A stretch of DNA of 64,000 nucleotides. It comes from a virus. Its lineage: Duplodnaviria; Heunggongvirae; Uroviricota; Caudoviricetes. Positions 2,354 to 25,134 of the stretch are shown here, in pieces (the first letter of the stretch is position 1; every line of letters starts with the position of its first letter). Under the pieces are notes generated by a model that saw nothing but the letters and a program-made list of their open reading frames with translations, did not search any database and was not told the DNA's origin. A program made the translations under genes and the position numbers. Location: the IMG/VR virus record IMGVR_UViG_2531839524_000004; one strand, 5' to 3'.

Positions 2354-3022
2354 ATGACCAAGATCTTTGTGGTTGGCGGCACAAAGGGCGGGCCTGGCAA
2401 ATCCACCGTTGCCCAGCAAATTGCCGTTTGCCTGAAAGTCAAAAAGAAGAAGAAGGTTTATATCACTGATATAGATATTCAGCGCACGACAACAAGCTGG
2501 TGTGAAGACCGTCGACAGAACGAAGACCTTGAGCTGATTCCTTTTGCATACGTTCAGGATGACATCATTAAGCACCTAAAATCGCTTCAGGGTAGAGCTG
2601 AGTTTGTAGTGGTAGATGCTGGTGGCTTTGACTCCGAAATTCAGCGACAAGCGATGCTGATGGCCGACGTTATCATTATCCCGCTGCGTCCTAAGCGTCG
2701 TGATTTGAAATCTTTACGTGACATCGATCCTATTATCGACAATGTTCGTAATGTAAACGATAAAGTGAAGGTCCGCGCGGTCATGAACCAGTGCCCGGCT
2801 TTGCCATCACAAGTGTCTCGCATTTTGGCGGCTAAAGAGATTGTCGAGACGTTTGGCATCGAGTCTGCGCCAGTCAATTTATATAACCGCAACGTCTATG
2901 ATGATGCGGAAGAGTCTGGTCGTTCTATCTTTGAAATGACCGGTAGCGAGCGCGACAAAAAGGCGGAAGCCGAGTTTGAAGAATTTGTAGATTATCTGTT
3001 GAGTCTGGAGGAAGAAGAATAA
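2354..3022 (+). CDS. parA: ParA-family partition ATPase
   Basis: Deviant Walker A GGTKGGPGKST near N-terminus, about 220 aa; followed by coupled small gene. Confidence 0.75.
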   Translation: MTKIFVVGGTKGGPGKSTVAQQIAVCLKVKKKKKVYITDIDIQRTTTSWCEDRRQNEDLELIPFAYVQDDIIKHLKSLQGRAEFVVVDAGGFDSEIQRQAMLMADVIIIPLRPKRRDLKSLRDIDPIIDNVRNVNDKVKVRAVMNQCPALPSQVSRILAAKEIVETFGIESAPVNLYNRNVYDDAEESGRSIFEMTGSERDKKAEAEFEEFVDYLLSLEEEE

Positions 3023-3381
3023 TGTCCATGAAAATGGGTGACCTAGCAAAGCGCAAAGAGCCTGATGCACCGGCTAAGAACACAACTCCTTTGCGCCAAC
3101 CAGTCAGACCACAGGGACGCCCGACTCGTGGCAAAGAGAAAATTAAAAGCCGCACAATGTCACTGGAGGACGAATACTTCGAACTGCTGGAGATGATGAA
3201 GTTCATCCCTCGCTTCGAGAAGTTCACTCGTTCTGACGTGATTCGAGCAGCCATTTTCCATCTGGCAGAGAAGTCACCGCAGGAAATCGAGGACATCGTG
3301 AAATTGAATGAGGCGATCACCGCTGCCGATGTCACGATGCGTACCGATGAAATCAAACGAGAGTTGATGAAGAAAGGTTAA
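3022..3381 (+). CDS. putative partition adaptor / centromere-binding protein (ParG/ParB-like small partner)
   Basis: 119 aa, start overlaps parA stop (TAATG); basic N-terminus; position typical of ParA partner; no direct domain proof. Confidence 0.45.
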   Translation: MSMKMGDLAKRKEPDAPAKNTTPLRQPVRPQGRPTRGKEKIKSRTMSLEDEYFELLEMMKFIPRFEKFTRSDVIRAAIFHLAEKSPQEIEDIVKLNEAITAADVTMRTDEIKRELMKKG

Positions 3382-3386
3382 AAATC

Positions 3387-3417
3387 ATGCATTGGCGCGT
3401 ACATTGCGCCAATGCAT
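3387..3417 (-). terminator. perfect 12-bp inverted repeat hairpin, probable terminator for the convergent minus-strand gene
   Basis: ATGCATTGGCGC-gtacatt-GCGCCAATGCAT; on the minus strand it is followed by a T-run (complement of AAAAAT at 3381-3386). Confidence 0.5.
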
Positions 3418-3433
3418 AACTACAGTGTCAGCT

Positions 3434-4201
3434 TTATGCCGCGCTAACACTATGTTCAGTCCTAACCACCCCAACCTTCACAAAAGGGCTACCGTAGCTT
3501 GGTGGCTTCTTGATTAATTTGCCTACATACAGTTTTCTAATATGCTCATCGGCTATTCTGCCAACAAATTCATAACGTTTTGTGTCGGGGCCAAGAGCTA
3601 TATCCCTTGTAAAGTACTGCTGAGAACCGGCTTTGACCCAGCATTCAATCTGATAAACTTCCATTATCAGCCCACCATATGTAGCGTAGGCATATTTGAG
3701 ATTCTCGTCTCTTGGAACCTTTGCCCATACGCCACGCGTAGCTTCATATAATGCCAGAGCGGACATTCCTGACTTGTAGGTGCTGTTTAGCAGGAAGGCA
3801 AGACCGGCGTGCTCAGGAGCAATTTCAGTTTCCTCTTGCAGCACTAAGTGATGGTAGGCGTCCAGTGATATTCTGCCCATCATGGAACCACTTCCTCGTA
3901 CCTTATTCGTAAGCTCTCCGACCCCCATAAGGTCGATGCATGTCGCCTCAACAAGTTTGGCTGTGGTTTCATCCATACCATGACGAAGTATATCTATGCC
4001 TAATTTTTTATTAGCCAAAAGTTCTTTGATCCGCATGGATTTGGGAGAGTCATCGGGATACTTGATGTGATCGAGACAACGAGTCGATTTGCCTTTTCCT
4101 ATGTAAAACGGTCTTTTCATCTTGTCTTCTGTATCATAGAGACAGTAAACATAGTATTTAGCCTTATCCAATGATCTCGCGTATACCGATAAATCGTCCA
4201 T
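3434..4201 (-). CDS. GIY-YIG-type nuclease domain protein (possible homing-endonuclease-like)
   Basis: N-terminal YVYCLYD...FYIGKGK...R motif typical of GIY-YIG; 255 aa; isolated minus-strand gene. Confidence 0.55.
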   Translation of the reverse strand: MDDLSVYARSLDKAKYYVYCLYDTEDKMKRPFYIGKGKSTRCLDHIKYPDDSPKSMRIKELLANKKLGIDILRHGMDETTAKLVEATCIDLMGVGELTNKVRGSGSMMGRISLDAYHHLVLQEETEIAPEHAGLAFLLNSTYKSGMSALALYEATRGVWAKVPRDENLKYAYATYGGLIMEVYQIECWVKAGSQQYFTRDIALGPDTKRYEFVGRIADEHIRKLYVGKLIKKPPSYGSPFVKVGVVRTEHSVSAA

Positions 4202-4319
4202 TATTGCATCTCTTTGCTACTGACTAATGCGTTCTATTTTACACATAAGTTTTTAATCAATTTAACAGGCTCAAAGTGTAGAGCTTCTGGGCGTCTAAGA
4301 CGACAAGTTAGCCTGCTTC

Positions 4320-4380
4320 TGTATATATAAATAATAAGTAACTTATTAAATATATATACGGAAGCAGGTCTTTTAAAAGA
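4320..4380. repeat. about 60-bp near-perfect AT-rich palindrome; first of two related copies in the window
   Basis: AGCCTGCTTCTGTATATATAAATAATAAGTAACTTATTAAATATATATACGGAAGCAGGTC; left arm identical to 52709..52733. Confidence 0.6.
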
Positions 4381-4484
4381 CACCACCAGAACAACTCCCT
4401 TCCGTTTCCACTTCCAAAAACTGCCACCAGTCGCTATCATCCGCTCATTGTGATAAGTAAGTAACTACCTACCAGGTGAGCCAC

Positions 4485-5225
4485 ATGAGCCAAATCTTTT
4501 TCGATACCATCGACAACGACCAGTACGACTTCATGACAGAGTGGAATACCGCTGTTATGGACAAGTGGGTCGCTGAAAACATTGGTTTGTCGCGCTGTAA
4601 AGACGAGGCTGAACTCTTCGAGACGAAGTGGTTTGATTACCGCGACATGCATCCTCTCATGGCCACCTGTCTTTTTACGGAGGCATACAAACGTCAGTAC
4701 TCAAATATCATGCTGACGCACGGTCGCGAACACTTTGAAACAGCTCCGTTCACCACCGGGTTAAAACGCCTGCCTTATCAGGAGTTGTCGACTGCCAATA
4801 AAACGTCGCTATGGAAAGCACGCCAGTTTGCGGATCGCTATTGCTGCTCATACGACTACTTTATCTCCACCGTTCTTTCCGCAGCTGCACGACGGCTGTG
4901 GGACAAGCTGCCGCGCCCACAGCATTTGTGGCAGCCAGAACTGATTGAGATATTTGAAGAGAAATTAGCCAGACGCGCAACAACCCGTCTGGATGACTCT
5001 CTGGTTAGCTTTAAGCATATGGGAGACATGCAGTTCAACCCGATTCAGGAAAGCTATTTTGAGTGGATTCTGGAGCGTTTGCGCACCATCCCTCGCAGCA
5101 AGCGCATACGCGCAATTTTCTCCGCTATCTGGCTAATGGAAATCGTTCCAGAGCGCCTTATTTCCGCCCACTTTCCAGAAGAACTGGAAGAAGCACGGCG
5201 GTTTATTGATCCCCTATCTAATTAA
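4485..5225 (+). CDS. hypothetical protein
   Basis: ORF with AGGTGA RBS 5 nt upstream of ATG 4485 (track ORF begins at in-frame GTG 4476). Confidence 0.5.
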   Translation: MSQIFFDTIDNDQYDFMTEWNTAVMDKWVAENIGLSRCKDEAELFETKWFDYRDMHPLMATCLFTEAYKRQYSNIMLTHGREHFETAPFTTGLKRLPYQELSTANKTSLWKARQFADRYCCSYDYFISTVLSAAARRLWDKLPRPQHLWQPELIEIFEEKLARRATTRLDDSLVSFKHMGDMQFNPIQESYFEWILERLRTIPRSKRIRAIFSAIWLMEIVPERLISAHFPEELEEARRFIDPLSN

Positions 5226-11898: not shown

Positions 11899-12097
11899 AC
11901 GGGAGAAGGAAACGCTTCATGAAATCAGTAAGTGGCCGGAGTTCCCTGAGTACTGGAAGCCTAAAACGCGAGCTAAGTTAGAGCGTTTAGGGTTGGTTGC
12001 AAACGTTTCTGAAACGTGGTGTTCGGCCAACTACCAGTTAACTGATAAAGGGAAAGTATTGCTACAGCAATTAGTAGAATCAGGAGTGTTAAAATGA
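11882..12097 (+). CDS. hypothetical protein
   Basis: 71 aa ORF, translationally coupled to flanking small genes. Confidence 0.4.
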   Translation: MIVLSKREKETLHEISKWPEFPEYWKPKTRAKLERLGLVANVSETWCSANYQLTDKGKVLLQQLVESGVLK

Positions 12098-12246
12098 TTC
12101 CATACATCTCATTAGCTTTTATGGGTGGCTTCCTTATCGGCTTCGGCATCTGTCGTGATTTAATTAAGCAGGAACTTAAAACCAAAACACTGTGCATCGG
12201 AAAGCGTGTGTATCGGGTAGTTCATGAAACAAAGGTGAAAAAATGA
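12094..12246 (+). CDS. small membrane protein (50 aa), paralog of 11719..11898
   Basis: ATGA overlap with upstream stop; TM helix FMGGFLIGFGI then KRVYRVVHE; not in ORF track (under 60 aa). Confidence 0.45.
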   Translation: MIPYISLAFMGGFLIGFGICRDLIKQELKTKTLCIGKRVYRVVHETKVKK

Positions 12247-12533: not shown

Positions 12534-13311
12534 AAACATATTGATAAGTATTTACTTACTTATCTTTTGTGTATAAGATGACTTTGTTTTCGTTGAGACG
12601 CGACTGTTTGAACTTAAATACAAGTGCAAACGAAGAAGTCTATCTGGCAGTAGCCTAATAAGCCAAACACCAGCGAGGTCAGTTTCCAGCCTCGTTACCG
12701 AAATGGGACACACTGAGCGAGTGGGATTGCAGAACGCAGGAGGGAACATTCATGTTCCCTCCGATGAAGTAACAGAATGGGCGGTTGGTATATTTTCAAC
12801 TCCATATGACTCCCGGATTCTTAGCCACTGACCGCCCATTCTGTTACGTCATTTTGTTCAATTATGTCGTTTATACTGGGTTAAAAAGCGGCGACGTAGC
12901 CCGGCTGGTATGGTTAGCCAGCACACAACGTTGAGGCCATTACATTTTTATCAATTCTAAGGTTCTATTCACAGAGATACCGGCGAGCGTTGATATGTAA
13001 CATGTTGGGCAAACATTCAATCGGAGTAGTGGCCTCAACGTTGTGAAGACGGGATTGTTGTGTAGGTTTAACCACTGTTGCCATTGGTGCCTGTTTTCAC
13101 AACAAATGATTCCATACATCACATTGTATAAATTACAAAGTAGGTGCTGTCCTCAGAAACATCATCTACTTAAAGATTTTGCCTTCTACTATTGAGCGAA
13201 GTCGAAAGCGTCTGGCACTAACGAAAAGTGCAAGTAGCGGTGCGTTTCCTGGCAGAAACTAAACCGTCGCGATTGGCACTGTTGAGTAATAAATACTGGC
13301 AGTGCTGAATT

Positions 13312-13386
13312 GATGGTGTAGCTCAGCGGTAGAGCAGTTGGCTGTTAACCAACTGGTCGGTGGTTCGAATCCACCCACCATCGCCA
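13312..13386 (+). tRNA. tRNA-Asn (anticodon GTT)
   Basis: Hand-folded cloverleaf: acceptor GATGGTG/CACCATC, anticodon loop CTGTTAA, T-loop TTCGAAT, encoded CCA. Confidence 0.85.
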
Positions 13387-13391
13387 ATTTA

Positions 13392-13478
13392 GGGGAGTTA
13401 GTCCGTAGAGGTAGCGGTGTAGACTGTAAATCTACTGTCATGGCGACTCGGGTGGTTCGACTCCATCACTCCCCACCA
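13392..13478 (+). tRNA. tRNA-Tyr (anticodon GTA), long variable arm
   Basis: Acceptor GGGGAGT/ACTCCCC, anticodon loop CTGTAAA, long variable arm, encoded CCA. Confidence 0.8.
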
Positions 13479-13482
13479 AATT

Positions 13483-13558
13483 GCCGGTTTAGCTCAGTTG
13501 GTAGAGCGCCTGCCTTGTAAGCAGGATGTCAGCGGTTCGAGTCCGTTAACCGGCACCA
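13483..13558 (+). tRNA. tRNA-Thr (anticodon TGT)
   Basis: Acceptor GCCGGTT/AACCGGC, D-arm GCTCAGTTGGTAGAGC, anticodon loop CTTGTAA, T-loop TTCGAGT, CCA. Confidence 0.85.
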
Positions 13559-13775
13559 ACACAACAGGAAAGAGCATTGAAACCCGCCGAGACTGCCCTG
13601 TTTTAAGCGTAAGTCCGTGCAAACGTCATACAGTGCTCTTTTCGTTGTGGTTGATGCGCAGACTGATGCGCGGAAAGAAATGCCCCAGCGACACACGAGG
13701 CGAGTTCACACACTGCAATGCAGTCAGTAGCCGGGGTCGCTAAGCCGGAGATCAGTACCGGTAACCACAACAATT

Positions 13776-13862
13776 GGAGAGTAGGGAGCATGGTGCTCAA
13801 GCGGTCTTGAAAACCGTCCCATTGTGCAAACGATGATGGTTCGATTCCATTACTCTCCGCCA
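13776..13862 (+). tRNA. tRNA-Ser (anticodon TGA), long variable arm
   Basis: Acceptor GGAGAGT/ACTCTCC, anticodon loop CTTGAAA, long variable arm, T-loop TTCGATT, CCA; D-arm pairing slightly irregular. Confidence 0.7.
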
Positions 13863-14016: not shown

Positions 14017-14041
14017 AAAGGGGCTTCGGCCCCTTTTTTGT
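14017..14041 (+). terminator. rho-independent terminator closing the tRNA cluster
   Basis: GGGGC-TTCG-GCCCC followed by TTTTTT. Confidence 0.8.
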
Positions 14042-14054
14042 TGAACAGTGCAAT

Positions 14055-15317
14055 TTACTTTGCATAGTCGCCCAATTTTAATATTTCGCGCTTATATTCA
14101 TTAACCATGCTACTGGATTCAGTATAAATTCGATTTAAAAGATTATCGTTATCTTTATTTTCATTTATCTTAATTAGTGCTAATTTATATTCATAGTCAT
14201 CAAATGCCACAATTAAATGGTGGCCTGGGATTATATCTTCGTCACTCTTAAAGTATATATCTTCAAGTATGTAATCTAGTTGATTAGATTTTCTTTTCTC
14301 GATGTAATCTTCAGCCATAGCTATTACATCATTCCTGTCATTTAACCTGTTTTTTTCGGAAGGCACATCTTCGTAATGTTGCACGATTGAACAACCAATA
14401 AGGCGTGGGATGTAAACGTCAAAATGAGTAACTCTATCATTCGCGGTTTTAAGTAGTTCCTCAAAGTAGTTTCTTACATGTAAAGGCAACTTCTCAAAGT
14501 AATCATTAATTATAGGAGAACAAGGAGTTTTATAATTCATAAGAACCGACGGTACGAGCTTTGGGTGTCGAAACATCCAGTCCCTTTTAACGTCCGATGG
14601 AACATAATAACTTTTAATGATATTATCAAAATAATTTATCATTCGAGATTTGAATATTTTGTTGAATCTAAGGTTTATGAATGTATCCAGATAAGGCATA
14701 TTTGAATAAGCATCATCAAAAAATATTTCATCATTGAAAAAATCATATTTATTCAATAAACAACACAGTTTTTCCGAATTAATATGTTCACAATAATCGA
14801 TTTTTAATCCAAAGATAGCAATGATCAACTTCATCTGAGGTGGGATTTTAAAAATTAATTGTGACACATACGCTCTTTTTTCCTTGAGACATTCCCCATC
14901 AATATAAAATGAACCATCCACATACTCAAATATATTAATAATATGCTTCACATACTGTATTACCTCATGCTGTCTTACCAATGGATAATATAGTCTATGT
15001 AACTCATCGCTGTTTAAATTAATTTTGTGTTTATCGATAATTTGTTTTGCAAGAAGACATAACTCATCATGTTGATTTAATAAGGAATCAAACCATTGTT
15101 TAAATGCACTCTTTCGCATTTCGAACAATGATTCAGTTGTTAATTGAAGGGCTGAAAAAGCTGCTTTTGCACTTTTTCTCGCTTCGTAGGCATTCCATGC
15201 TGTTGCTATAAAAGCAAATGCTGTAGCCAATGTTCCAACAGTTTGACCATTTAAAACAACCCAATCCCAAAAAATGACGGTGAGCAGTAGTATAATAATG
15301 AAAATTAAAAAAGGCAT
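14055..15317 (-). CDS. membrane-anchored hypothetical protein, strongly AT-rich accessory gene
   Basis: 420 aa; two N-terminal TM helices; base composition much more AT-rich than flanking genes; isolated on minus strand. Confidence 0.6.
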   Translation of the reverse strand: MPFLIFIIILLLTVIFWDWVVLNGQTVGTLATAFAFIATAWNAYEARKSAKAAFSALQLTTESLFEMRKSAFKQWFDSLLNQHDELCLLAKQIIDKHKINLNSDELHRLYYPLVRQHEVIQYVKHIINIFEYVDGSFYIDGECLKEKRAYVSQLIFKIPPQMKLIIAIFGLKIDYCEHINSEKLCCLLNKYDFFNDEIFFDDAYSNMPYLDTFINLRFNKIFKSRMINYFDNIIKSYYVPSDVKRDWMFRHPKLVPSVLMNYKTPCSPIINDYFEKLPLHVRNYFEELLKTANDRVTHFDVYIPRLIGCSIVQHYEDVPSEKNRLNDRNDVIAMAEDYIEKRKSNQLDYILEDIYFKSDEDIIPGHHLIVAFDDYEYKLALIKINENKDNDNLLNRIYTESSSMVNEYKREILKLGDYAK

Positions 15318-15491
15318 GTATGTATTTCACTCTACTAACTATAAAATATTAGGCTAATGTTAACCAAACAATGCCTTAATTAATAGATTGATCGAGGCTT
15401 TAATAGCTTTATAATGCAGACTGTAAAGATAAGTATGCACATACCTATCTTCTTTGTAAGTAAAGTTGCATATCAATTCTATGAGGTAACA

Positions 15492-15737
15492 ATGACGATC
15501 ACTATCTACGGACGAGATAACTGCTCATACTGCAAACGTGCGGTCGAGCTGGCGAAGCAACTAAAGGGACATGGCTACGGTGATTATGAGTACATCGACA
15601 TCACCACTGCCGGTATCGACAAGGAAAAACTAAGTGAAATTGTTGGTAAACCGGTAGAGACTATCCCCCAAGTGCTGATCGATGGCCAACCGATTGGCGG
15701 ATACACAGAACTGGCTGCATACGTCAGCACCCTCTGA
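15492..15737 (+). CDS. glutaredoxin/NrdH-like redoxin
   Basis: MTITIYGRDNCSYCKRA with CxxC active-site motif; GAGG RBS 4 nt upstream of ATG 15492. Confidence 0.7.
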   Translation: MTITIYGRDNCSYCKRAVELAKQLKGHGYGDYEYIDITTAGIDKEKLSEIVGKPVETIPQVLIDGQPIGGYTELAAYVSTL

Positions 15738-15741
15738 TTTT

Positions 15742-15766
15742 AACGGCTCACAGGAGCCGTTTTTAT
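15742..15766 (+). terminator. rho-independent terminator
   Basis: AACGGCTC-acag-GAGCCGTT followed by TTTATT. Confidence 0.65.
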
Positions 15767-15947
15767 TCCCACCAAACTCACTCCCGTTTCCCTTAAAATT
15801 CAAAAAACAACGTCAAAATGATTCCATACCTACTATGTATGGAATCATTACTGAAAATGAGTTACTTTGACTCTTGATCCTATAAGAATCTATGCCTAAT
15901 ATACTGTTTACTTATACAGTGAATCGGCGTAACTCGGTGATTGTCAT

Positions 15948-17051
15948 ATGAAAAATAGCTTTGACAGAGCACGCGCTGCGGAGAACACCTCAAAAGAGGC
16001 GATTGAGTATCTCGAAAGAGCATCTCAAATGCAGGCCGTTATGATCTCGCAGGTTAGCAATGATATGAGATTCTCGGACGCATTCATGTTATTTACTCGC
16101 TTATCTCTGCTGATAACAAGACGTCGGCCGGAGATCGCTGTTCATTGTATTTTGATACATGTTTTGCCGCACATTGCTGATGTAAAAGTAAGTGACATTA
16201 ATAGGTTCATGGTGAACCAACTGGTCAACCCCCTAATACTGGATGGCAAAATTGTTATGGGCCGCCGCGTTTTCTCTCTGATGAAGCAGTTCCTTAGCTG
16301 GTGTGCCTTCCAGGGGATGATCGACGTGTCACCGTTAAACGATATGTCACTAAACAAAGTTGCCGGTGGCGCAAAGCCCACGCCTCGCGAGCGGAAGCTA
16401 ACCGACGCAGAGGTATGGGTGTTCTGGAATATATGGGACTACTTCAATGTGTGCGCTGGTACAAAATGGGCGGCCAGGCTATGTCTTGTATCCGCAAGAC
16501 GACCTGACGAAGTACTGCGGGCTAAAAAAAGTGAGTTCAACCTCCAGCGTGGGGTTTGGAATCAAGGCAAGAGAAACAAATCAGCCCGTGAGCATTCTCT
16601 GCCTTTAAGCACATTAATGCGCACATGCATTGAAGAGTTATTCGAATATGGTAAAGGCAGCCAGTGGCTTGTGCCTTCGAATAAAAAAATCGGGAAAGAT
16701 CTTCCGATGTCTAAAGTGGCAATAGCCCAGGCATTACGCCGTATCCTGGAACGACCAGAACTGATGGAGCTTGAGCCATTTACACCACGAGATTTGCGTC
16801 GTACTGCGCGTAGTTACTTCCCAGCATTAGGCATAAGCCAGGAGGTATCACGTAAAATCATGAACCACAGTCTTGAGGGGATAGATCGGGTCTACGACCG
16901 GCACGATTATATGGACGAGATGCGAGACGCCTTAGAAAGTTTCTCGACGTACATCGCATCAATCGTAGAGCAACCGGATTTAGACGAAATTGACCACAAA
17001 TTCAAGGGAGATCGTCTATCGACAGAGCTTATTCGTGTAAATTTTTCATAG
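15948..17051 (+). CDS. tyrosine recombinase / phage-type integrase
   Basis: C-terminal catalytic region with DLRRT box and NHSLEG...RVYDRHDY (His and Tyr nucleophile); first His of HxLRR appears to be Arg. Confidence 0.65.
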   Translation: MKNSFDRARAAENTSKEAIEYLERASQMQAVMISQVSNDMRFSDAFMLFTRLSLLITRRRPEIAVHCILIHVLPHIADVKVSDINRFMVNQLVNPLILDGKIVMGRRVFSLMKQFLSWCAFQGMIDVSPLNDMSLNKVAGGAKPTPRERKLTDAEVWVFWNIWDYFNVCAGTKWAARLCLVSARRPDEVLRAKKSEFNLQRGVWNQGKRNKSAREHSLPLSTLMRTCIEELFEYGKGSQWLVPSNKKIGKDLPMSKVAIAQALRRILERPELMELEPFTPRDLRRTARSYFPALGISQEVSRKIMNHSLEGIDRVYDRHDYMDEMRDALESFSTYIASIVEQPDLDEIDHKFKGDRLSTELIRVNFS

Positions 17052-17432
17052 AGACTTTATGGCCTCAACAACCTTTTGTGATGCGCCTTTCTCTTTACCG
17101 AATCGCTCGTTATATGCAGCAAGAACCTGTTTTTCGTCCTCGTTAAGAGGAGCAGTGCCTTCTTTGTATAAAAATGCTGCGAGTTCGGGTTGGCGTTCTT
17201 CCAGCACCATCATCATAAGACGACTTGGCTCAATACCCAGTGCCAGCGCCAGCGGACGAACCTTATCGATAGGCAAAGGAATTTTGCCGCTTTTAATTAA
17301 AGAAAGGTTGTTGGCGTTTTTATACCCAATTGTTTTGGCTATCTGGGCCTGGCTCATAGGTGAGGATTCAATCAACCCTGCGATAAAAGCAGCGTAGCGA
17401 CTTTCTATAAATTCAATCTTGTTGTCAGACAT
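17046..17432 (-). CDS. XRE-family helix-turn-helix transcriptional regulator
   Basis: HTH signature SQAQIAKTIGYKNANNLSLIKSGK; convergent with and overlapping recombinase 3' end. Confidence 0.7.
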   Translation of the reverse strand: MSDNKIEFIESRYAAFIAGLIESSPMSQAQIAKTIGYKNANNLSLIKSGKIPLPIDKVRPLALALGIEPSRLMMMVLEERQPELAAFLYKEGTAPLNEDEKQVLAAYNERFGKEKGASQKVVEAIKSL

Positions 17433-17684
17433 TGTTACAACCTTTGCGCGTTCAATTCTCTCTGGTAAGTGCTTACCGATATTACATCAAAGGTTAGGGT
17501 TGTAAAGCTATTATCATTTTTTTCGATAGGCACTTAAAAGACCGGTTAAAGGCCATTGCACGGAGAAAAAATTAGCCCAAAACAGGTAAGAAAATTAACT
17601 TGCATCTAATATGGATGTATTCAGTATTGATATAAATTTTAGTAGTATTCCTTACAATAGTATAAGTAAGAATGGATTGATTGA

Positions 17685-21615: not shown

Positions 21616-24600
21616 ATGAAGGCTCTAATGGTTCGAACTGACTTCTCTCTTGGGGAGTCGGCTCTAAAAGCAGAAAACGCGGGGAAGATTGCCAGAGAAG
21701 CTGGCTACACCGCTGTAATTTCGGCAGATAGCATGAATATTGCGAGTGTTATTCCACTACAACGTGCCGCTGGTGACGACATGGCGGTTATTTGTGGTGT
21801 GAAACTAAACATCGTTGATGATCCCACATACGAGCACCGGGCTAAACTTGCTAAAGAGTCTATGAGATGTATGGAATCATTAGAGCGTGGGCGGAACTAC
21901 TCGTTTACCGCTCTAATTAAAAATGAGCAAGGATATCGCGACATCTGCGAACTAATGACGGTGGCCAACACACGAGAACAATTCTACTTTGTACCGCGTC
22001 TCTCGCTCGATCAGCTGGTTTCTACATATGCCAAAGGCAACATCATCCTGCTTACTTCCGACATCGGTAGCGTGTTCCAACGCAACGATTTTGCAAAAAT
22101 CATAAGCTCACTGATTACAGCGGGTGGAAAAGACAACTTCTATAGCGTGGTTTATCCGCACCCTACCCCATTCTACGACCAGATTAACGTCCGAGCGATG
22201 AAAGTAGCTAGCGCACTGAAAATAGAGCCAGTGGCGTTCTATCCCGCTTATTACGAATCGATCGACGATGCAGACATTAAAGACATTGCGCACATGGTTA
22301 CGAACAACATCAAAATAGCCCAGCCGCATCGTCTGCGTATCCCCCACCAGCGAGATAACGCCGTCAATGGTCGCCGCCATCTCCTTGAGGCGCTTAAAGC
22401 CTTCTCCGTTCGCATGGATGTGCCGGTAACAGCTGCAATGGCCTCAACAACGCAGGACACCATTATCGAAGCCTGCACATGGCGCTGGCATGAATTGCCA
22501 CCAGCACTTCCTAAGATGGCAGACGACGAACCTGCAACACTGATGAAACTTGCTGTTGCAGGGCTGCGTAAGCGTCTTACCACAAAAGAGTTTGGCTATA
22601 TACCACCGGCTTCTGAGAACAGGGTTTATGTTGAACGACTTAAGTACGAAATGGACACGCTGACTCGCCTGGGATTCTGTGGTTACTTCCTGATGGTGCG
22701 CGATCTGATGAATCATAGTCGTGAAACTGGCATTCCCGTTGGGCCTGGTCGTGGTTCCTCTGCCGGTTCTCTGGTGGCGTGGTGCATAGGCATAACCAAC
22801 GTCGACCCAATCCGTCACGGTCTTCTGTTTGAACGTTTCATCAACCCTGAGCGTCTCGACTTGCCGGATGCGGATTTGGACTTCAGCCAGGCACGTCGCC
22901 ATGAGGTGATCGAGTATCTGAATGAACGCTACGGCGAAGATTACGTTGCAGGCATTCCGAACTTCACCTACCTGGGCGCCGCCTCTGCACTACGTGACAC
23001 TGCTCGTATTTATGGTGTGGAGTCCGCAGATATGGCGGTATCAAAAGAGCTGAAGAACGTCGAGGATGATAGCCTTCCATTGGAGGAGCTGCGCGAACAA
23101 CTGGCAAGTCTCGACAAATACGCGACAAAATACCCTGATGCATTCAATGCAGCCTGCAAGTTACAAAGCCTTATGCGTGGCTTTGGTAGGCATGCGGCTG
23201 GGATGATCGTAGCAGGTGTTCCTCTGACTGAACGTACACCGGTTGAACGTCGTGGTGACGCGCGTTGTATCGCATTTGACAAGCGTTACTGCGAGGCTAT
23301 GGGCCTAATTAAGCTGGACGTACTTGGCCTAGCAACTCTCGATTTGCTCGATAGTGCAAAACGCTATATCAAAGAGAACACGGGTGAAGATATCAACCTT
23401 GATGCCATTTCTCTTGAAGATCGCAAGGTGCTGGATGGTTTTGCTGCTGGGTACACTCAAGGTGTTTTCCAGCTTGAATCAGGCCCAATGCGCAAGCTGC
23501 TTAAGGACTTAGGTAGTGGCATTGAGCCAATGAGCTTTAAAACGGTCGTTGCTACGACTGCGCTCTTCCGACCGGGGCCAATTCAGTCAGGCATGTTGGA
23601 TGACTATGTTTCTGTCGCCAAAGGTTTTATGACGCCAGAGTCACTACACCCCGTTCTTGATGAGCTTACCGCAGAAACCAACGGTGTGATTCTCTATCAG
23701 GAGCAGACGATGAACGCGACCCGATTGCTTGCCGGCTTCACAATGGCTGAAGCTGACGGCGTTCGTAAAGCGATCGGCAAAAAAGATATGGAAAAAATGA
23801 AGAGCATGGGCGAGAAGTTCATCGTTCAGGCTCAAGCTGGCTGGATAGACGTTGAGCTGGAAGATGGCACTACACAGCGCATTCACCGTGCGGAACATTT
23901 TAAATGCGAAGACGGAACTCTGAAAACTGTCGAAGAGGCACTTGAGCACGGCGCAAAACTACCTATAAACGCAGTACGCGTGACAGCGTCACACCCAGGG
24001 CTATCAGAGATGAAAGCGAAGGAGATCTGGACCGCATTCGAAAAAAATGGTGCCTACCAGTTCAACAAATCACACTCTGTTGCTTACTCCTTAATCAGTT
24101 ATCAATCTATGTGGTTGAAAACTCATTATCCCGCAGAGTTTTTCGCTGCTGCTCTTACTATTCTTGGTGAAGATAAACACCAGGGGCTGGTTAAAGATGC
24201 GCTGACCTATGGCATTCGCGTATTGCCACCAGACGTTAATGTGTCATCTAACCGAATAGAGATCCGCACGCTTGAAGATGGCAGCCAGGTGCTGTTCGCG
24301 CCTTTCTCTGCTGTGAAGGGGTGTTCAGAGAATGGCTGCCAAGCCATCATGAGAGCGCGTGAAAAAGTTGGAGGTAAATTCGAGTCACTGGCGCAATTCG
24401 AAGAAGCTGTCGAGAAACGTGCCTGTAATAGTCGAGTACGCGAATCACTGCAAAAAGTAGGGGCGTTTGCATCCATTGAGCCTGGTAGTCTGCCAGCAAC
24501 TGATCCAGAGCGTCTCCGCGACCAAGCAGAATTGATGGGAAACCTTGTCATAGACGCAGTTAAAGCCTCACGTCCGTTTGAAATGAACCCCAAACGATCG

Positions 24601-25134
24601 GCTGAAATTAACGTGCTCATGACACGGATGGCGGCTGAAATGGGTTTAGGTGATGAACTAATCCGCCCCAGCATTGGTATTAAGCCGAAAATCATGATCA
24701 TTCTGGACAATGCGAACGGCAATGATGCTCGAACCGGTTACTTTATGGAGAACGGATACGACGATTTTAAGGCCAAGTTGCTGACGGCCGGAGATTTGCG
24801 TATGGGCGATCTCTATGTCACAGGCGTTTGCAAGAAGGTTAAAGACAAAGAAAAAGACTACACCAAAGACGAGATCGGCCAGTTCACCGACTTTATGCGT
24901 GAAGAGATCAATCTGGTGCGTCCGACCTATGTTCTGACGTGTGGTAGTCGGGCGACGTCGCTCTTCAACAACAAGAGCAAACCATCCGACCTGGTTGGAC
25001 GCAAAGAGTATCTGCCAGAGCTGGATGTGACCGTTTTCTACGGCTTTAACCCGAATATTTTGTACTTTCGTCCAGAGGAAGGCGAGAAGCTGGAAGCAAT
25101 TCTGGCAGAGGTAGCGGAGACTATTAGCAAATGA
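21616..25134 (+). CDS. DNA polymerase III alpha-like (DnaE-family C-type polymerase)
   Basis: 1172 aa; strong match to DnaE catalytic core, e.g. GPGRGSSAGSLVAWCIGIT..DP and FERFINPERLDLPDADLDF. Confidence 0.9.
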   Translation: MKALMVRTDFSLGESALKAENAGKIAREAGYTAVISADSMNIASVIPLQRAAGDDMAVICGVKLNIVDDPTYEHRAKLAKESMRCMESLERGRNYSFTALIKNEQGYRDICELMTVANTREQFYFVPRLSLDQLVSTYAKGNIILLTSDIGSVFQRNDFAKIISSLITAGGKDNFYSVVYPHPTPFYDQINVRAMKVASALKIEPVAFYPAYYESIDDADIKDIAHMVTNNIKIAQPHRLRIPHQRDNAVNGRRHLLEALKAFSVRMDVPVTAAMASTTQDTIIEACTWRWHELPPALPKMADDEPATLMKLAVAGLRKRLTTKEFGYIPPASENRVYVERLKYEMDTLTRLGFCGYFLMVRDLMNHSRETGIPVGPGRGSSAGSLVAWCIGITNVDPIRHGLLFERFINPERLDLPDADLDFSQARRHEVIEYLNERYGEDYVAGIPNFTYLGAASALRDTARIYGVESADMAVSKELKNVEDDSLPLEELREQLASLDKYATKYPDAFNAACKLQSLMRGFGRHAAGMIVAGVPLTERTPVERRGDARCIAFDKRYCEAMGLIKLDVLGLATLDLLDSAKRYIKENTGEDINLDAISLEDRKVLDGFAAGYTQGVFQLESGPMRKLLKDLGSGIEPMSFKTVVATTALFRPGPIQSGMLDDYVSVAKGFMTPESLHPVLDELTAETNGVILYQEQTMNATRLLAGFTMAEADGVRKAIGKKDMEKMKSMGEKFIVQAQAGWIDVELEDGTTQRIHRAEHFKCEDGTLKTVEEALEHGAKLPINAVRVTASHPGLSEMKAKEIWTAFEKNGAYQFNKSHSVAYSLISYQSMWLKTHYPAEFFAAALTILGEDKHQGLVKDALTYGIRVLPPDVNVSSNRIEIRTLEDGSQVLFAPFSAVKGCSENGCQAIMRAREKVGGKFESLAQFEEAVEKRACNSRVRESLQKVGAFASIEPGSLPATDPERLRDQAELMGNLVIDAVKASRPFEMNPKRSAEINVLMTRMAAEMGLGDELIRPSIGIKPKIMIILDNANGNDARTGYFMENGYDDFKAKLLTAGDLRMGDLYVTGVCKKVKDKEKDYTKDEIGQFTDFMREEINLVRPTYVLTCGSRATSLFNNKSKPSDLVGRKEYLPELDVTVFYGFNPNILYFRPEEGEKLEAILAEVAETISK

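What the first reader, a model, noticed from the sequence alone, without database searches (positions are those of the whole stretch)
15948..17432. Tyrosine recombinase with atypical catalytic box, paired with a convergent XRE regulator
The recombinase has the Tyr nucleophile context (NHSLEG...RVYDRHDY) but the box that normally reads HxLRR appears to read RDLRR, so the first catalytic His may be replaced. It overlaps tail-to-tail with an HTH regulator. In a plasmid-like prophage this could be the dimer-resolution or integration recombinase under local repressor control, or a degenerate relic next to the tRNA hotspot.
Basis: partly seen in the sequence, partly recalled or inferred. Interest (0 to 1): 0.45.

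Follow-up and report, generated by a model that had tools for sequence, protein, structure and literature searches.

The report
Plasmid recombinase with its lox-like site
This gene in an E. coli phage-plasmid encodes an intact tyrosine recombinase in which one catalytic histidine is always arginine, and next to it lies a previously undescribed 33-bp target site, so it most likely keeps the plasmid monomeric the way Cre/loxP does for phage P1.

Summary
ORF 15948-17051 (+, 367 aa) is a tyrosine recombinase that reads RDLRR where HxLRR is expected. It overlaps a 128-aa HTH gene (17046-17432, -) tail-to-tail by 6 nt.

It is not a relic. Arg281 is invariant in about 110 homologue clusters down to 45% identity, the other catalytic residues (R185, K211, R284, Y316) are also invariant, and dN/dS is 0.03-0.05.

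The protein is a P4-type integrase derivative that has lost the arm-binding domain. A perfect 13-7-13 palindrome (15817-15849) lies 98 bp upstream. A palindrome of this design precedes the gene in 63 of 64 species loci, and its two arms change together.

In 5,426 complete E. coli genomes the site region occurs 208 times. Every copy is on a plasmid and there is one per genome.

Best reading: a Cre/loxP-like multimer-resolution system, which may also mediate exchange between plasmids.

In phage-plasmids its promoter carries the window's only LexA box. The HTH gene is more likely the prophage repressor than an int-specific regulator: only 8 of 64 loci have it.

Three lone copies of the arm near the site are unexplained. 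No activity has been tested.

The parts
15948..17051 (+). int: arm-less tyrosine recombinase, 367 aa. Catalytic set is R185, K211, R281 (in place of the first His), R284, H307, Y316.
   Evidence: ORF. Pfam PF00589 above cut-off. AF2 model has pLDDT 83 and its best PDB match is lambda Int. Residue mapping. Invariance. dN/dS 0.03-0.05.
15817..15849 (.). Candidate recombination site, 33 bp: AATGATTCCATAC (15817-15829), spacer CTACTAT (15830-15836), GTATGGAATCATT (15837-15849).
   Evidence: Unique perfect palindrome in the window, against 0 expected. A 13-7-13 palindrome precedes int in 63 of 64 loci, versus 8-9 of 13 matches in control regions. Both arms change together at positions 6 and 11. Homology among relatives with different cargo starts exactly at its left edge.
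15874..15902 (+). Inferred int promoter: -35 TTGATC (15874-15879), 17-nt spacer, -10 TAATAT (15897-15902).
   Evidence: Read from the sequence. Both hexamers are conserved in pMT1, Salmonella and Klebsiella relatives. It scores 8 of 12, one short of the 9 of 12 the scan tool requires, so the tool did not list it. Inference only.
15902..15921 (+). LexA-box-like sequence TACTGTTTACTTATACAGTG (CTGT-N8-ACAG), abutting the -10.
   Evidence: It is the only CTGT-N8-ACAG in the 64-kb window. The stricter form ACTGT-N8-ACAGT is expected 0.09 times. CTGT and ACAG are conserved while the centre varies in pMT1, Salmonella, Kluyvera and Klebsiella relatives. It is one of only two good boxes in the whole of Cyrano. 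LexA binding was not tested.
17046..17432 (-). HTH (XRE-like) gene, 128 aa, convergent with int and overlapping it by 6 nt. Probably the prophage repressor.
   Evidence: ORF. Pfam HTH hits are below cut-off. PHROG phrog_8 'transcriptional regulator', E = 1.3e-11. The orthologue CYRAN_45 is listed as putative repressor and is expressed in lysogeny. Found next to int in only 8 of 64 loci.
12093..12105 (-). Lone copy of the site arm (GAT-GTATGGAATCATT). It overlaps the start codon of small ORF 12094..12246.
   Evidence: Exact 13-mer. Syntenic copies occur in Cyrano, Salmonella pAR-0407-3 and SSU5. Function unknown.
13105..13117 (-). Lone copy of the site arm, non-coding, about 200 bp upstream of the tRNA cluster.
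   Evidence: Exact 13-mer. The only lone arm found in the Klebsiella relative, which is not shown to lie at the matching position, carries the same ATT-to-ACA change as that plasmid's core-site arms.
21869..21881 (+). Lone copy of the site arm inside the dnaE-like ORF 21616..25134.
   Evidence: Exact 13-mer. Conserved at the same place in pMT1, Salmonella and SSU5 dnaE.
14041..15816 (.). Variable cargo region abutting the site. Slot A (about 14041-15480) holds a 420-aa ORF (14055-15317, -). The grx gene (about 15492-15737) follows. Slot B (about 15738-15816) is empty in this window.
   Evidence: Breakpoints against six E. coli relatives. Other cargo found in relatives: AbiGi, a YafO toxin-antitoxin pair, Gp49 and a strongly expressed hypothetical gene. 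In pMT1 the caf1 operon lies here.

Best explanation
Int is an active 'simple' tyrosine recombinase. It descends from P4-type integrases but has lost the arm-binding domain. Its catalytic set is R-K-R-R-H-Y instead of R-K-H-R-H-Y.

Proposed mechanism: one monomer binds each 13-bp arm of the 33-bp site that lies 98 bp upstream of its own gene. Tyr316 cleaves on either side of the asymmetric 7-bp spacer. Two sites in direct repeat on a plasmid dimer are then recombined back to monomers. That would keep a low-copy phage-plasmid heritable (Cyrano has about 5.5 copies per cell), even though the element encodes a T4-like homologous-recombination machinery.

Because related plasmids carry identical sites, the same reaction between co-resident plasmids would swap the DNA to the left of the site. 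This would explain why the accessory-gene slot ends exactly at the site.

In the phage-plasmid lineage the gene is read from a promoter overlapped by a LexA box. That predicts basal expression in lysogeny and a rise during the SOS response.

Shown here: the gene, its conservation, the residue mapping, the site and its co-variation, the plasmid-only distribution, and the LexA-box sequence. Inferred: DNA binding, cleavage, resolution, LexA control, and exchange between plasmids.
For: **Enzyme**
- Pfam PF00589 scores above its cut-off.
- The AF2 model has pLDDT 83 and pTM 0.71. Its best PDB matches are lambda Int (TM about 0.6), Tn1549 Int and Xer proteins.
- R185, K211, R281, R284 and Y316 are invariant in a 26-sequence alignment spanning 43-87% identity.
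- All family members at 44% identity or more that were full-length through the box read RDLRR, apart from P0074 (RELRI), which also diverges at nearby conserved positions; P0106, read out of frame there, was not counted.
- dN/dS is 0.03-0.05.
- The arm-binding domain is absent: there is no PF13356, and NCBIfam PRK09692 matches only model positions 137-393. The N-terminus is entirely helical in the model.
- Substitutions at this His are known in active recombinases: SSV1-type KxxR and pNOB8-type YxxR (PMC8371274), and IntDes Tyr and IntBPP-1 (PMC8138268).

**Site**
- It is a unique perfect 13-7-13 palindrome in the window.
- In 63 of 64 species loci a palindrome with at least 11 of 13 matches lies within -400 to +50 of int. 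Control regions give mostly 8-9 of 13.
- Across 38 distinct sites, arm positions 3-13 are symmetric in 36-38 of 38. Paired changes occur at position 6 (T:A to C:G) and position 11 (T:A to G:C).
- The site travels with int where no XRE gene is present.

**Function**
- The site region occurs in 208 of 5,426 complete E. coli genomes, always on a plasmid, once per genome, never on a chromosome.
- Of 1,081 plasmid records with a homologue, 990 are typed non-mobilizable.
- The family also occurs on large Pantoea plasmids (253-613 kb) and a 562-kb Rahnella plasmid that show no phage genes next to int.
- Int is the only site-specific recombinase annotated in the 108-kb Cyrano genome, which encodes UvsX/RecA, UvsY, gp32, SbcCD, RuvC and UvsW homologues.
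- The spacer occurs in both orientations relative to int among close relatives. This is expected for a self-contained site with no flanking accessory arms.
- Phage SSU5, which lacks the whole int/XRE block, is listed only as a phage genome with S. Typhimurium LT2 as host, so the block appears not to be needed for lytic growth.

**Exchange between plasmids**
- Homology among E. coli relatives with different cargo begins at the first base of the left arm.
- L005 is the closest relative to the right of the site (99.7%) but the most divergent to the left (92.6%).

**LexA control**
- The box is unique in the window and conserved.
- Cyrano int RNA rises from log2 5.6 in LB to 10.3 inside macrophages (PMC9928086 S1 Table). 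I recall, without having checked it here, that LF82 induces its SOS response in that setting.
Against: - No recombination, DNA binding or plasmid-stability phenotype has been tested here or in any paper I could find.
- A resolvase under LexA repression is unusual. One would expect it to be needed in uninduced cells, although Cyrano int is expressed in LB at about half the repressor's level.
- The nearest sequence relatives are integrases, not resolvases.
- The cargo slots have other boundaries that are not Int sites (14040, 15480, about 15718). Much of the mosaicism is therefore not made by Int.
- The three lone arms near the site are not explained by a simple Cre/lox model.
- The rise of int RNA in macrophages is shared by neighbouring genes: CYRAN_46 rises from 4.3 to 10.8. 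It may reflect partial prophage induction rather than LexA.
The His position nevertheless agrees with the database-derived alignment.
Confidence: 0.6

Rival explanations
1. It is a true integrase. The 33-bp site is an attP, and the element can insert into a chromosomal or plasmid attB.
For: The closest sequence relatives are P4/CP4-57-type integrases. The gene lies beside a tRNA cluster. Databases annotate it as 'site-specific integrase'.
Against: All 208 copies of the site region in 5,426 complete E. coli genomes are on plasmids, and none is on a chromosome. The arm-binding domain that P4-type integrases use at attP arm sites is missing. No excisionase-like gene is nearby. The site is a symmetric, self-contained palindrome whose polarity relative to int flips among relatives. 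The tRNAs belong to the element and are not a chromosomal target.
Confidence: 0.07
2. It is a decaying or catalytically dead recombinase gene that persists only as a DNA-binding protein or as junk.
For: The first catalytic His is missing. Lone arm copies suggest DNA binding without recombination.
Against: dN/dS is 0.03-0.05. Every orthologue examined has an intact full-length ORF. R185, K211, R284 and the nucleophile Y316 are invariant, as is the replacing Arg. The two-armed site with a 7-bp spacer is conserved. Other active recombinases carry Lys or Tyr at this position.
Confidence: 0.04
3. Its main role is integron-like: it captures or exchanges accessory genes at the site, which creates the cargo hotspot upstream.
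For: The variable DNA stops exactly at the outer edge of the left arm in several independent variants. The cargo includes defence genes, toxin-antitoxin genes and, in pMT1, the caf1 capsule operon. Like integron integrases, the gene has a LexA box.
Against: No second full site flanks any cargo block, and each replicon has a single site. The other slot boundaries (14040, 15480, about 15718) are not arm sequences. The lone arms do not coincide with those breakpoints.
Confidence: 0.1
4. It circularises the infecting linear phage genome, as Cre can for P1, rather than resolving plasmid dimers.
For: The element is a phage-plasmid that makes virions (PMC9928086). The Cre precedent rests on my own background knowledge.
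Against: The site is roughly 40 kb from the terminase genes in Cyrano, so it would seldom lie in a terminal redundancy. The same int-plus-site unit occurs on large Pantoea and Rahnella plasmids with no phage genes next to int. SSU5 lacks the unit entirely yet is held as a phage genome with an S. Typhimurium host.
Confidence: 0.05

Closest known systems
Cre/loxP of phage-plasmid P1, and the Cre-type systems Dre/rox, Vika/vox, Nigri/nox and Panto/pox
   Same: A single recombinase without an arm-binding domain. Its target site lies just upstream of its own gene. The site consists of 13-bp inverted repeats around a short asymmetric spacer. It is carried by a low-copy phage-plasmid or large plasmid. 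The expected role is dimer resolution.
   Different: It is not a sequence relative of Cre. phmmer finds no PDB hit. Cre first appears at rank 34 in Foldseek (E = 0.012), whereas lambda Int scores E = 8e-7. The spacer is 7 bp, not 8. Published Cre-type discovery pipelines required 8 bp and so would miss it (PMC4957104, PMC10250229). The first catalytic His is Arg. The promoter carries a LexA box. Panto is a different protein, 41% identical to Cre.
P4 / CP4-57-type (DUF4102-bearing) phage and island integrases
   Same: These are the nearest sequence relatives, sharing the ...DLRRT... and NH...VYDRHDY motifs. They also share a SAM-like core-binding domain plus catalytic domain.
   Different: The N-terminal arm-binding domain (PF13356) is absent. 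NCBIfam PRK09692 scores 33.6 bits against a cut-off of 434. It reads RDLRR rather than HDLRR. It is found only on plasmids and never integrated.
TnpI/IRS of Tn4430
   Same: A tyrosine recombinase that acts as a resolvase. It binds extra copies of its arm motif outside the core site (PMC2847244 is listed; the detail comes from my own background knowledge).
   Different: TnpI's accessory repeats lie within about 100 bp of the core. Here the lone arms are 2-6 kb away, and no role for them has been shown.
SSV1-type (R..KxxR..Y) and pNOB8-type (R..YxxR..Y) archaeal integrases; IntDes
   Same: The first His of the catalytic pentad is naturally replaced, in SSV1 by a basic residue, in enzymes known to be active (PMC8371274, PMC8138268).
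   Different: These are unrelated lineages. They are integrative rather than plasmid-maintenance enzymes, and the replacing residue is Lys or Tyr, not Arg.
Integron integrase IntI
   Same: It is under LexA control, and variable genes lie upstream of the gene beyond the site (my own background knowledge).
   Different: There are no attC-like sites flanking the cargo, only one site per replicon, and it is not an IntI relative (IntI4, 2a3v, ranks 18th).

Membership tests
Tyrosine recombinase superfamily (Pfam PF00589) | Catalytic-domain profile match above the curated threshold | tested here: met
   39.5 bits against a cut-off of 27.1, residues 172-320.
Tyrosine recombinase superfamily (Pfam PF00589) | Two-domain fold of core-binding plus catalytic domains | tested here: met
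   AF2 model with pLDDT 83. Foldseek hits to lambda Int, Tn1549 Int, XerH/XerA/XerD, IntI4 and Cre, all with probability 1.00.
Tyrosine recombinase superfamily (Pfam PF00589) | Catalytic R-K-H-R-H/W plus the Tyr nucleophile | tested here: not met
   Five of the six residues are present (R185, K211, R284, H307, Y316). The first His is Arg281 in the whole clade. This position is known to vary in active members, so the departure does not exclude activity.
Tyrosine recombinase superfamily (Pfam PF00589) | Covalent 3'-phosphotyrosyl cleavage and strand exchange | not testable with these tools
   Needs biochemistry or an in vivo reporter assay.
P4 / CP4-57-type integrases (NCBIfam PRK09692; PF13356 + PF22022 + PF00589) | N-terminal arm-type DNA-binding domain (DUF4102, PF13356) | tested here: not met
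   The query has no PF13356 hit. None of the 113 clade clusters listed carries it, whereas outgroups P0114-P0120 do. The N-terminus is entirely helical in the model.
P4 / CP4-57-type integrases (NCBIfam PRK09692; PF13356 + PF22022 + PF00589) | Full-length match above the NCBIfam cut-off | tested here: not met
   33.6 bits against a cut-off of 434, and only model positions 137-393 of 413 are matched.
P4 / CP4-57-type integrases (NCBIfam PRK09692; PF13356 + PF22022 + PF00589) | Found integrated in chromosomes at an attB, often a tRNA gene | tested here: not met
   0 chromosomal copies against 208 plasmid copies in complete E. coli genomes.
Cre/lox-type simple recombination systems (functional class) | Self-contained site of two inverted 13-bp arms around an asymmetric spacer, next to the recombinase gene | tested here: met
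   13-7-13 at 15817-15849, 98 bp from the ATG. Conserved and co-varying in 63 of 64 loci. The spacer is 7 bp rather than 8.
Cre/lox-type simple recombination systems (functional class) | Sequence homology to Cre | tested here: not met
   No phmmer hit to any PDB chain. The family profile hits only XerH and CB-domain fragments weakly. Cre ranks 34th by Foldseek.
Plasmid multimer-resolution systems (functional class) | Loss of the system causes multimer accumulation and plasmid instability in rec+ hosts | not testable with these tools
   Only indirect support: plasmid-only distribution, a single copy per replicon, and Int being the only site-specific recombinase annotated in Cyrano.
LexA (SOS) regulon | CTGT-N8-ACAG box overlapping the promoter | tested here: met
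   TACTGTTTACTTATACAGTG at 15902-15921 matches 16 of 20 positions of the E. coli consensus as I recall it. It abuts the inferred -10. It is unique in 64 kb and conserved in four other lineages.
LexA (SOS) regulon | LexA binding and DNA-damage induction | tested here: inconclusive
   Binding cannot be tested here. Published RNA-seq shows int rising about 25-fold in macrophages, but neighbouring genes rise too.
CI-like prophage repressor (for the XRE gene) | HTH DNA-binding domain | tested here: inconclusive
   Pfam HTH_19, HTH_37 and HTH_3 all score below their cut-offs. PHROG phrog_8 'transcriptional regulator' gives E = 1.3e-11.
CI-like prophage repressor (for the XRE gene) | RecA-stimulated self-cleavage domain (peptidase S24) | tested here: not met
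   The protein is 128 aa and has no S24 match.
Integron (IntI + attI + attC cassettes) | Cassettes bounded by repeated recombination sites | tested here: not met
   Each replicon has one full site, and none flanks the cargo.

The most novel reading that the evidence does not exclude
In SSU5-like phage-plasmids the int promoter may act as the SOS sensor for prophage induction.

The reasoning has four steps.
- The putative master repressor has no self-cleavage domain.
- Cyrano has only two good LexA boxes, and neither precedes an anti-repressor gene. One is at the int promoter and the other precedes a UmuD-like gene.
- int converges on the repressor gene with a conserved overlap of 6-11 nt, and no terminator lies at the junction (a weak terminator-like stem sits about 220 nt further on).
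- LexA cleavage would therefore send int transcription antisense through the repressor gene. Transcriptional interference or antisense RNA would then lower repressor levels.

Int bound to the lone arms, which cluster around the site and face it, could add a further layer of control.
Probability: 0.12. Interest if true: 0.7.

Novelty: new variant of a known kind. Interest (0 to 1): 0.45.

Why it matters
- The work defines a widespread and apparently uncharacterised recombinase-plus-site pair. It occurs on 1,081 records in the plasmid collection, on the Y. pestis pMT1 plasmid, and on large Pantoea and Rahnella plasmids.
- The clade shows that Arg can permanently replace the first catalytic His of a bacterial tyrosine recombinase.
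- The site has a 7-bp spacer, which published searches for Cre-like genome-engineering tools were not designed to find.
- It gives a testable explanation for how these phage-plasmids stay monomeric despite carrying their own recombination machinery.
- It may also explain why their accessory-gene hotspot ends at a fixed point. That hotspot holds defence genes and toxin-antitoxin genes in the relatives examined, and the F1 capsule operon in pMT1.
- The LexA box links the system to the SOS response, which is relevant to how these elements are induced.

Tried and rejected
- **Direct sequence search against PDB.** The single protein gave nothing. The family profile gave only weak partial hits, including spurious ribosomal eL28. 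I used fold search and hhalign instead.
- **Literature search for the arm sequences.** Searches for ATGATTCCATAC and GACTCCAGAC returned only unrelated papers.
- **Panto/pox as a possible identity for the Pantoea relatives.** Rejected. Panto is 41% identical to Cre and pox resembles rox.
- **Lone arms as halves of degenerate full sites.** The sequence 7-8 bp away shows no arm similarity (inspection of the flanks).
- **Lone arms as boundaries of the variable cargo.** Rejected. The breakpoints among E. coli relatives are at 14040, 15480, about 15718 and 15816, not at 12093 or 13105.
- **A copy of the arm inside int itself** (GAT-GTATGGAATCA in pMT1, Salmonella and Klebsiella). It encodes the conserved DVWNQG motif and is probably a coding coincidence. 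The window has GTTTGGAATCA there.
- **XRE operator near the int promoter.** The palindrome GGTAAGTGCTTACC beside the XRE gene has no good copy between the site and int.
- **Promoter scan.** The tool did not report the int promoter because it scores 8 of 12, below its 9-of-12 threshold. The promoter is inferred from conservation.
- **PADLOC and Pfam on the 420-aa cargo ORF and the small ORFs.** No informative hits.
- **Model coordinates.** They were not available to scripts, so I could not measure active-site geometry around R281.
Full report
**1. What is there**

The window is an SSU5-like phage-plasmid of E. coli. The 2.5 kb around the finding is 91-98% identical to phage Cyrano (= pLF82) and three related E. 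coli phage records. The Int protein is 100% identical to that of pLF82/Cyrano.

Their ends overlap by 6 nt, and each gene's stop codon is the complement of the other's last sense codon. The motifs PRDLRR, NHSLEG and RVYDRHDY are all present.

**2. The catalytic box**

- Pfam calls the protein a Phage_integrase: 39.5 bits against a cut-off of 27.1.
- An AlphaFold model built on 26 homologues has mean pLDDT 83. Its best PDB match is lambda integrase (TM about 0.6), followed by Tn1549 Int, Xer proteins, IntI4 and, further down, Cre.
- I aligned 114 database homologues of at least 300 residues. Every clade member that is full-length through the box reads RDLRR, except P0074 (RELRI), which also diverges at nearby conserved positions. 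The clade spans 44-99% identity.
- The nearest outgroups carry the DUF4102/PF13356 arm domain. Six of them (P0114-P0119) read HDLRR at the same column. One arm-bearing outgroup, P0120, also reads RDLRR.
- Profile alignment to lambda Int and XerD gives R185 = XerD R148, K211 = K172, R281 = lambda H308 / XerD H244, R284 = R311/R247, H307 = H333/H270 and Y316 = Y279.

So the first His of the R-K-H-R-H pentad really is Arg.

It is not decay. R185, K211, R281, R284 and Y316 are invariant in a 26-sequence alignment spanning 43-87% identity. dN/dS against the pMT1, Salmonella and Klebsiella orthologues is 0.03-0.05. The literature shows that this position varies in active recombinases: SSV1-type KxxR, pNOB8-type YxxR, IntDes Tyr, and weak conservation in IntBPP-1 (PMC8371274 and PMC8138268).

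**3. Domain make-up**

The protein matches only positions 137-393 of the 413-position P4/CP4-57-type model PRK09692, at 33.6 bits against a cut-off of 434. It has no PF13356 arm-binding domain. Residues 1-70 are predicted to be helical. It is therefore a P4-type integrase derivative that has become a 'simple' recombinase with two domains.

**4. The site**

A perfect palindrome lies 98 bp upstream of the ATG, at 15817-15849: AATGATTCCATAC-CTACTAT-GTATGGAATCATT. It is unique in the window, and none is expected by chance.

I fetched the gene's surroundings from one genome per species. In 63 of 64 loci a 13-7-13 palindrome with at least 11 of 13 matches lies within -400 to +50 of int. Control regions of the same loci mostly reach only 8-9 of 13.

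There are two arm families:
- ATGATTCCATAC in SSU5-like elements and Chimaeribacter.
- TGACTCCAGAC in Pantoea, Rahnella, Erwinia, Ewingella, Xenorhabdus, Photorhabdus, Morganella and Hafnia.

Across 38 distinct sites, arm positions 3-13 stay symmetric in 36-38 of 38. Paired changes occur at position 6 (T:A to C:G) and position 11 (T:A to G:C). A Klebsiella lineage with a 59%-identical Int changed the outer arm bases on both sides, from AAT..ATT to TGT..ACA.

In the 9-kb locus windows, 56 of the 64 loci show no homologue of the XRE gene, yet they keep the site. In L011 the downstream gene is pagP rather than an XRE gene. The site therefore co-evolves with Int.

The spacer is usually TTAATAG or its reverse complement CTATTAA. 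Both orientations relative to int occur among close relatives. That is expected for a self-contained lox-like site but not for an attP with flanking arm sites.

**5. Distribution**

- The site region occurs in 208 of 5,426 complete E. coli genomes. Every copy is on a plasmid, there is exactly one per genome, and none is on a chromosome.
- tblastn finds the protein on 1,081 plasmid records, of which 990 are typed non-mobilizable. These include Y. pestis pMT1, Salmonella, Klebsiella, Enterobacter and Citrobacter phage-plasmids, and Pantoea and Rahnella plasmids of 268-613 kb.
- In the fully annotated Cyrano genome, Int is the only site-specific recombinase. The element also encodes UvsX/RecA, UvsY, gp32-like SSB, SbcCD, RuvC and UvsW homologues, so it should generate multimers readily.
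- Phage SSU5 itself lacks the whole block from just after tRNA-Asn to just before cobT. That block comprises the remaining tRNAs, the cargo, grx, the site, int, the XRE gene and a 70-aa ORF. The block therefore belongs to the lysogenic plasmid state and appears not to be needed for lytic growth.

**6. Best explanation**

These facts fit a Cre/loxP-like plasmid multimer-resolution system. It is a functional analogue of Cre, not a relative of it.

The site also marks the exact right-hand limit of a variable accessory-gene region. In Cyrano, pEC16-2 and a Tanzanian plasmid (L005), different genes lie between grx and int. In each case homology to the window resumes at the first base of the left arm. 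Partial matches in other E. coli plasmids start at window 15816/15817. L005 is the closest relative to the right of the site (99.7%) but the most divergent to the left (92.6%).

Int-mediated recombination between co-resident related plasmids would produce this pattern. This is an inference. Other slot boundaries (14040, 15480, about 15718) are not Int sites, and no cargo block is flanked by two sites. An integron-like capture role is therefore weakly supported.

**7. Regulation**

Between the site and the ATG lie a conserved -35 TTGATC (15874-15879) and -10 TAATAT (15897-15902). Immediately after them comes TACTGTTTACTTATACAGTG (15902-15921).

- This is the only CTGT-N8-ACAG in the 64-kb window.
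- It is one of two good boxes in the whole of Cyrano. The other precedes a UmuD-like gene.
- Its CTGT and ACAG halves are conserved in pMT1, Salmonella, Kluyvera and Klebsiella relatives while the centre varies.
- It is absent from the Pantoea-type loci.

In published RNA-seq, Cyrano int reads at 49.5 normalised counts in LB, compared with 95.8 for the repressor and 7.8 for cobT. It rises from log2 5.6 to 10.3 at 6 h inside macrophages (PMC9928086 S1 Table). Neighbouring genes rise too, so this is consistent with LexA control but does not prove it.

**8. The XRE gene**

It is convergent with int in all SSU5-like loci examined, with overlaps of 6-11 nt. Among species loci, however, it accompanies int in only 8 of 64. 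Five of those eight, the ones whose 9-kb window reaches that far, also carry cobT.

It lies divergent from the early genes (a 70-aa ORF, cobT, cobS, dnaE). The Cyrano authors list its orthologue as the putative lysogeny repressor, expressed in lysogeny. It has no peptidase S24 domain. A palindrome beside it, GGTAAGTGCTTACC at 17464-17477, has no copy in the int promoter.

I therefore read it as the prophage repressor that happens to abut int, not as a dedicated int regulator.

The conserved convergent overlap, the LexA box on int and the lack of any LexA-controlled anti-repressor together leave open a more novel idea. SOS-driven int transcription could run antisense into the repressor gene and help trigger induction. 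I put this at about 0.12.

**9. Unexplained**

The exact 13-mer arm also occurs as three lone copies: 12093-12105 (-), 13105-13117 (-) and 21869-21881 (+). Each is preceded by GAT.

- Cyrano has exactly these three and no others in 108 kb. All lie within -3.2 to +6.0 kb of the core site.
- Each has its spacer-side end facing the core site.
- Syntenic copies exist in Salmonella pAR-0407-3, pMT1 (in dnaE) and SSU5.
- The Klebsiella lone arm carries the same ATT-to-ACA change as that plasmid's core arms.
- Two of the three overlap coding sequence, which confounds the conservation argument.

Int probably binds them. What that achieves is unknown.

**10. Comparison and novelty**

The system works like Cre/loxP. 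It descends from P4-type integrases. It carries an R-K-R-R-H-Y catalytic set and a 7-bp spacer.

I found no paper that describes the site or assigns a role to this protein. Published searches for Cre-type recombinases required 8-bp spacers.

I class it as a new variant of a known kind. The enzyme being functional, and the site being its target, are well supported. The resolution role and LexA control are inferred and untested.

Noticed in passing
window 12093-12105 (-), 13105-13117 (-), 21869-21881 (+): Three exact lone copies of the 13-bp site arm, each preceded by GAT. They are the only ones in the 108-kb Cyrano genome. All lie within -3.2 to +6.0 kb of the core site, and each faces it. Syntenic copies occur in Salmonella, pMT1 and SSU5, and a Klebsiella copy co-varies with that plasmid's core arms. 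Function unknown.
   Followed up: partly
L007 / L079 (Y. pestis pMT, NZ_CP009841.1 22691-28482): In pMT1 the F1 capsule operon caf1R-caf1M-caf1A-caf1 occupies the accessory-gene slot that ends at the left edge of the Int site. IS elements lie further left.
   Followed up: partly
L080 (phage SSU5, NC_018843.1 42525-42761): The name-giving phage SSU5 lacks the whole block from after tRNA-Asn to before cobT, and so has no site, no int and no XRE repressor. It looks like a deletion derivative without the lysogeny module. Its one non-coding lone arm has picked up a mismatch.
   Followed up: yes
L008 (K. pneumoniae pKPHS1, locus 2961-5001): A retA-type reverse-transcriptase gene (annotated retA; I did not check whether it is a group II intron) sits between the site and int. 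The insertion replaces the left half of the LexA box and the promoter, leaving only ...CATACAGTG before the int ATG.
   Followed up: no
Cyrano OV696614.1 89277-89296 (just beyond or at the end of the window): A second strong LexA box, TACTGTATGTGTATACAGTA, lies directly upstream of CYRAN_98, a 129-aa LexA-like/UmuD-like peptidase S24 gene.
   Followed up: no
proteins P0016, P0017, P0019, P0020 (Nissabacter/Serratia-type relatives): In this subgroup the second catalytic His (H307, motif NHS) is Gln (NQS), in addition to the Arg at the first His. These enzymes would therefore have neither His of the pentad.
   Followed up: no
L013/L014 versus L015; L034 versus L038 and others: The 7-bp spacer (TTAATAG or CTATTAA) occurs in both orientations relative to int, even among relatives 85-86% identical to the query. 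The tally is 17 spacers starting with C against 47 ending with G. The spacer frame xTAxTAx is itself partly self-complementary.
   Followed up: partly
window 14055-15317 (-): The accessory slot between the tRNAs and grx holds a 420-aa ORF of unknown function. It matches PHROG phrog_18168 and has no Pfam or PADLOC hit. Relatives carry AbiGi-like, Gp49 or other genes there.
   Followed up: partly
window 13312-13862: The tRNA cluster here is Asn-Tyr-Thr-Ser. Cyrano has Asn-Thr-Ser and SSU5 has Asn only, so the tRNA set itself varies among close relatives.
   Followed up: no
window 17464-17477: The palindrome GGTAAG-TG-CTTACC, with a partial second copy at 17523-17541, lies in the divergent region between the XRE gene and the 70-aa ORF. 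It is a candidate repressor operator. Looser copies in the window number 14 against 4 expected.
   Followed up: partly
L016-L018 versus L063, L066, L070 (Chimaeribacter spp.): The same genomes carry two paralogous int-plus-site systems with different arms: AATGATTCCATAC, and TGTGACGCCAGAC / GTATGGAGTCACA. This suggests the two specificities do not cross-react.
   Followed up: no
Cyrano CYRAN_43 (slot between grx and int; absent from this window): The gene that fills the grx-int slot in Cyrano is expressed about 723-fold above the prophage background in lysogeny (PMC9928086). It is transcribed away from the site.
   Followed up: no
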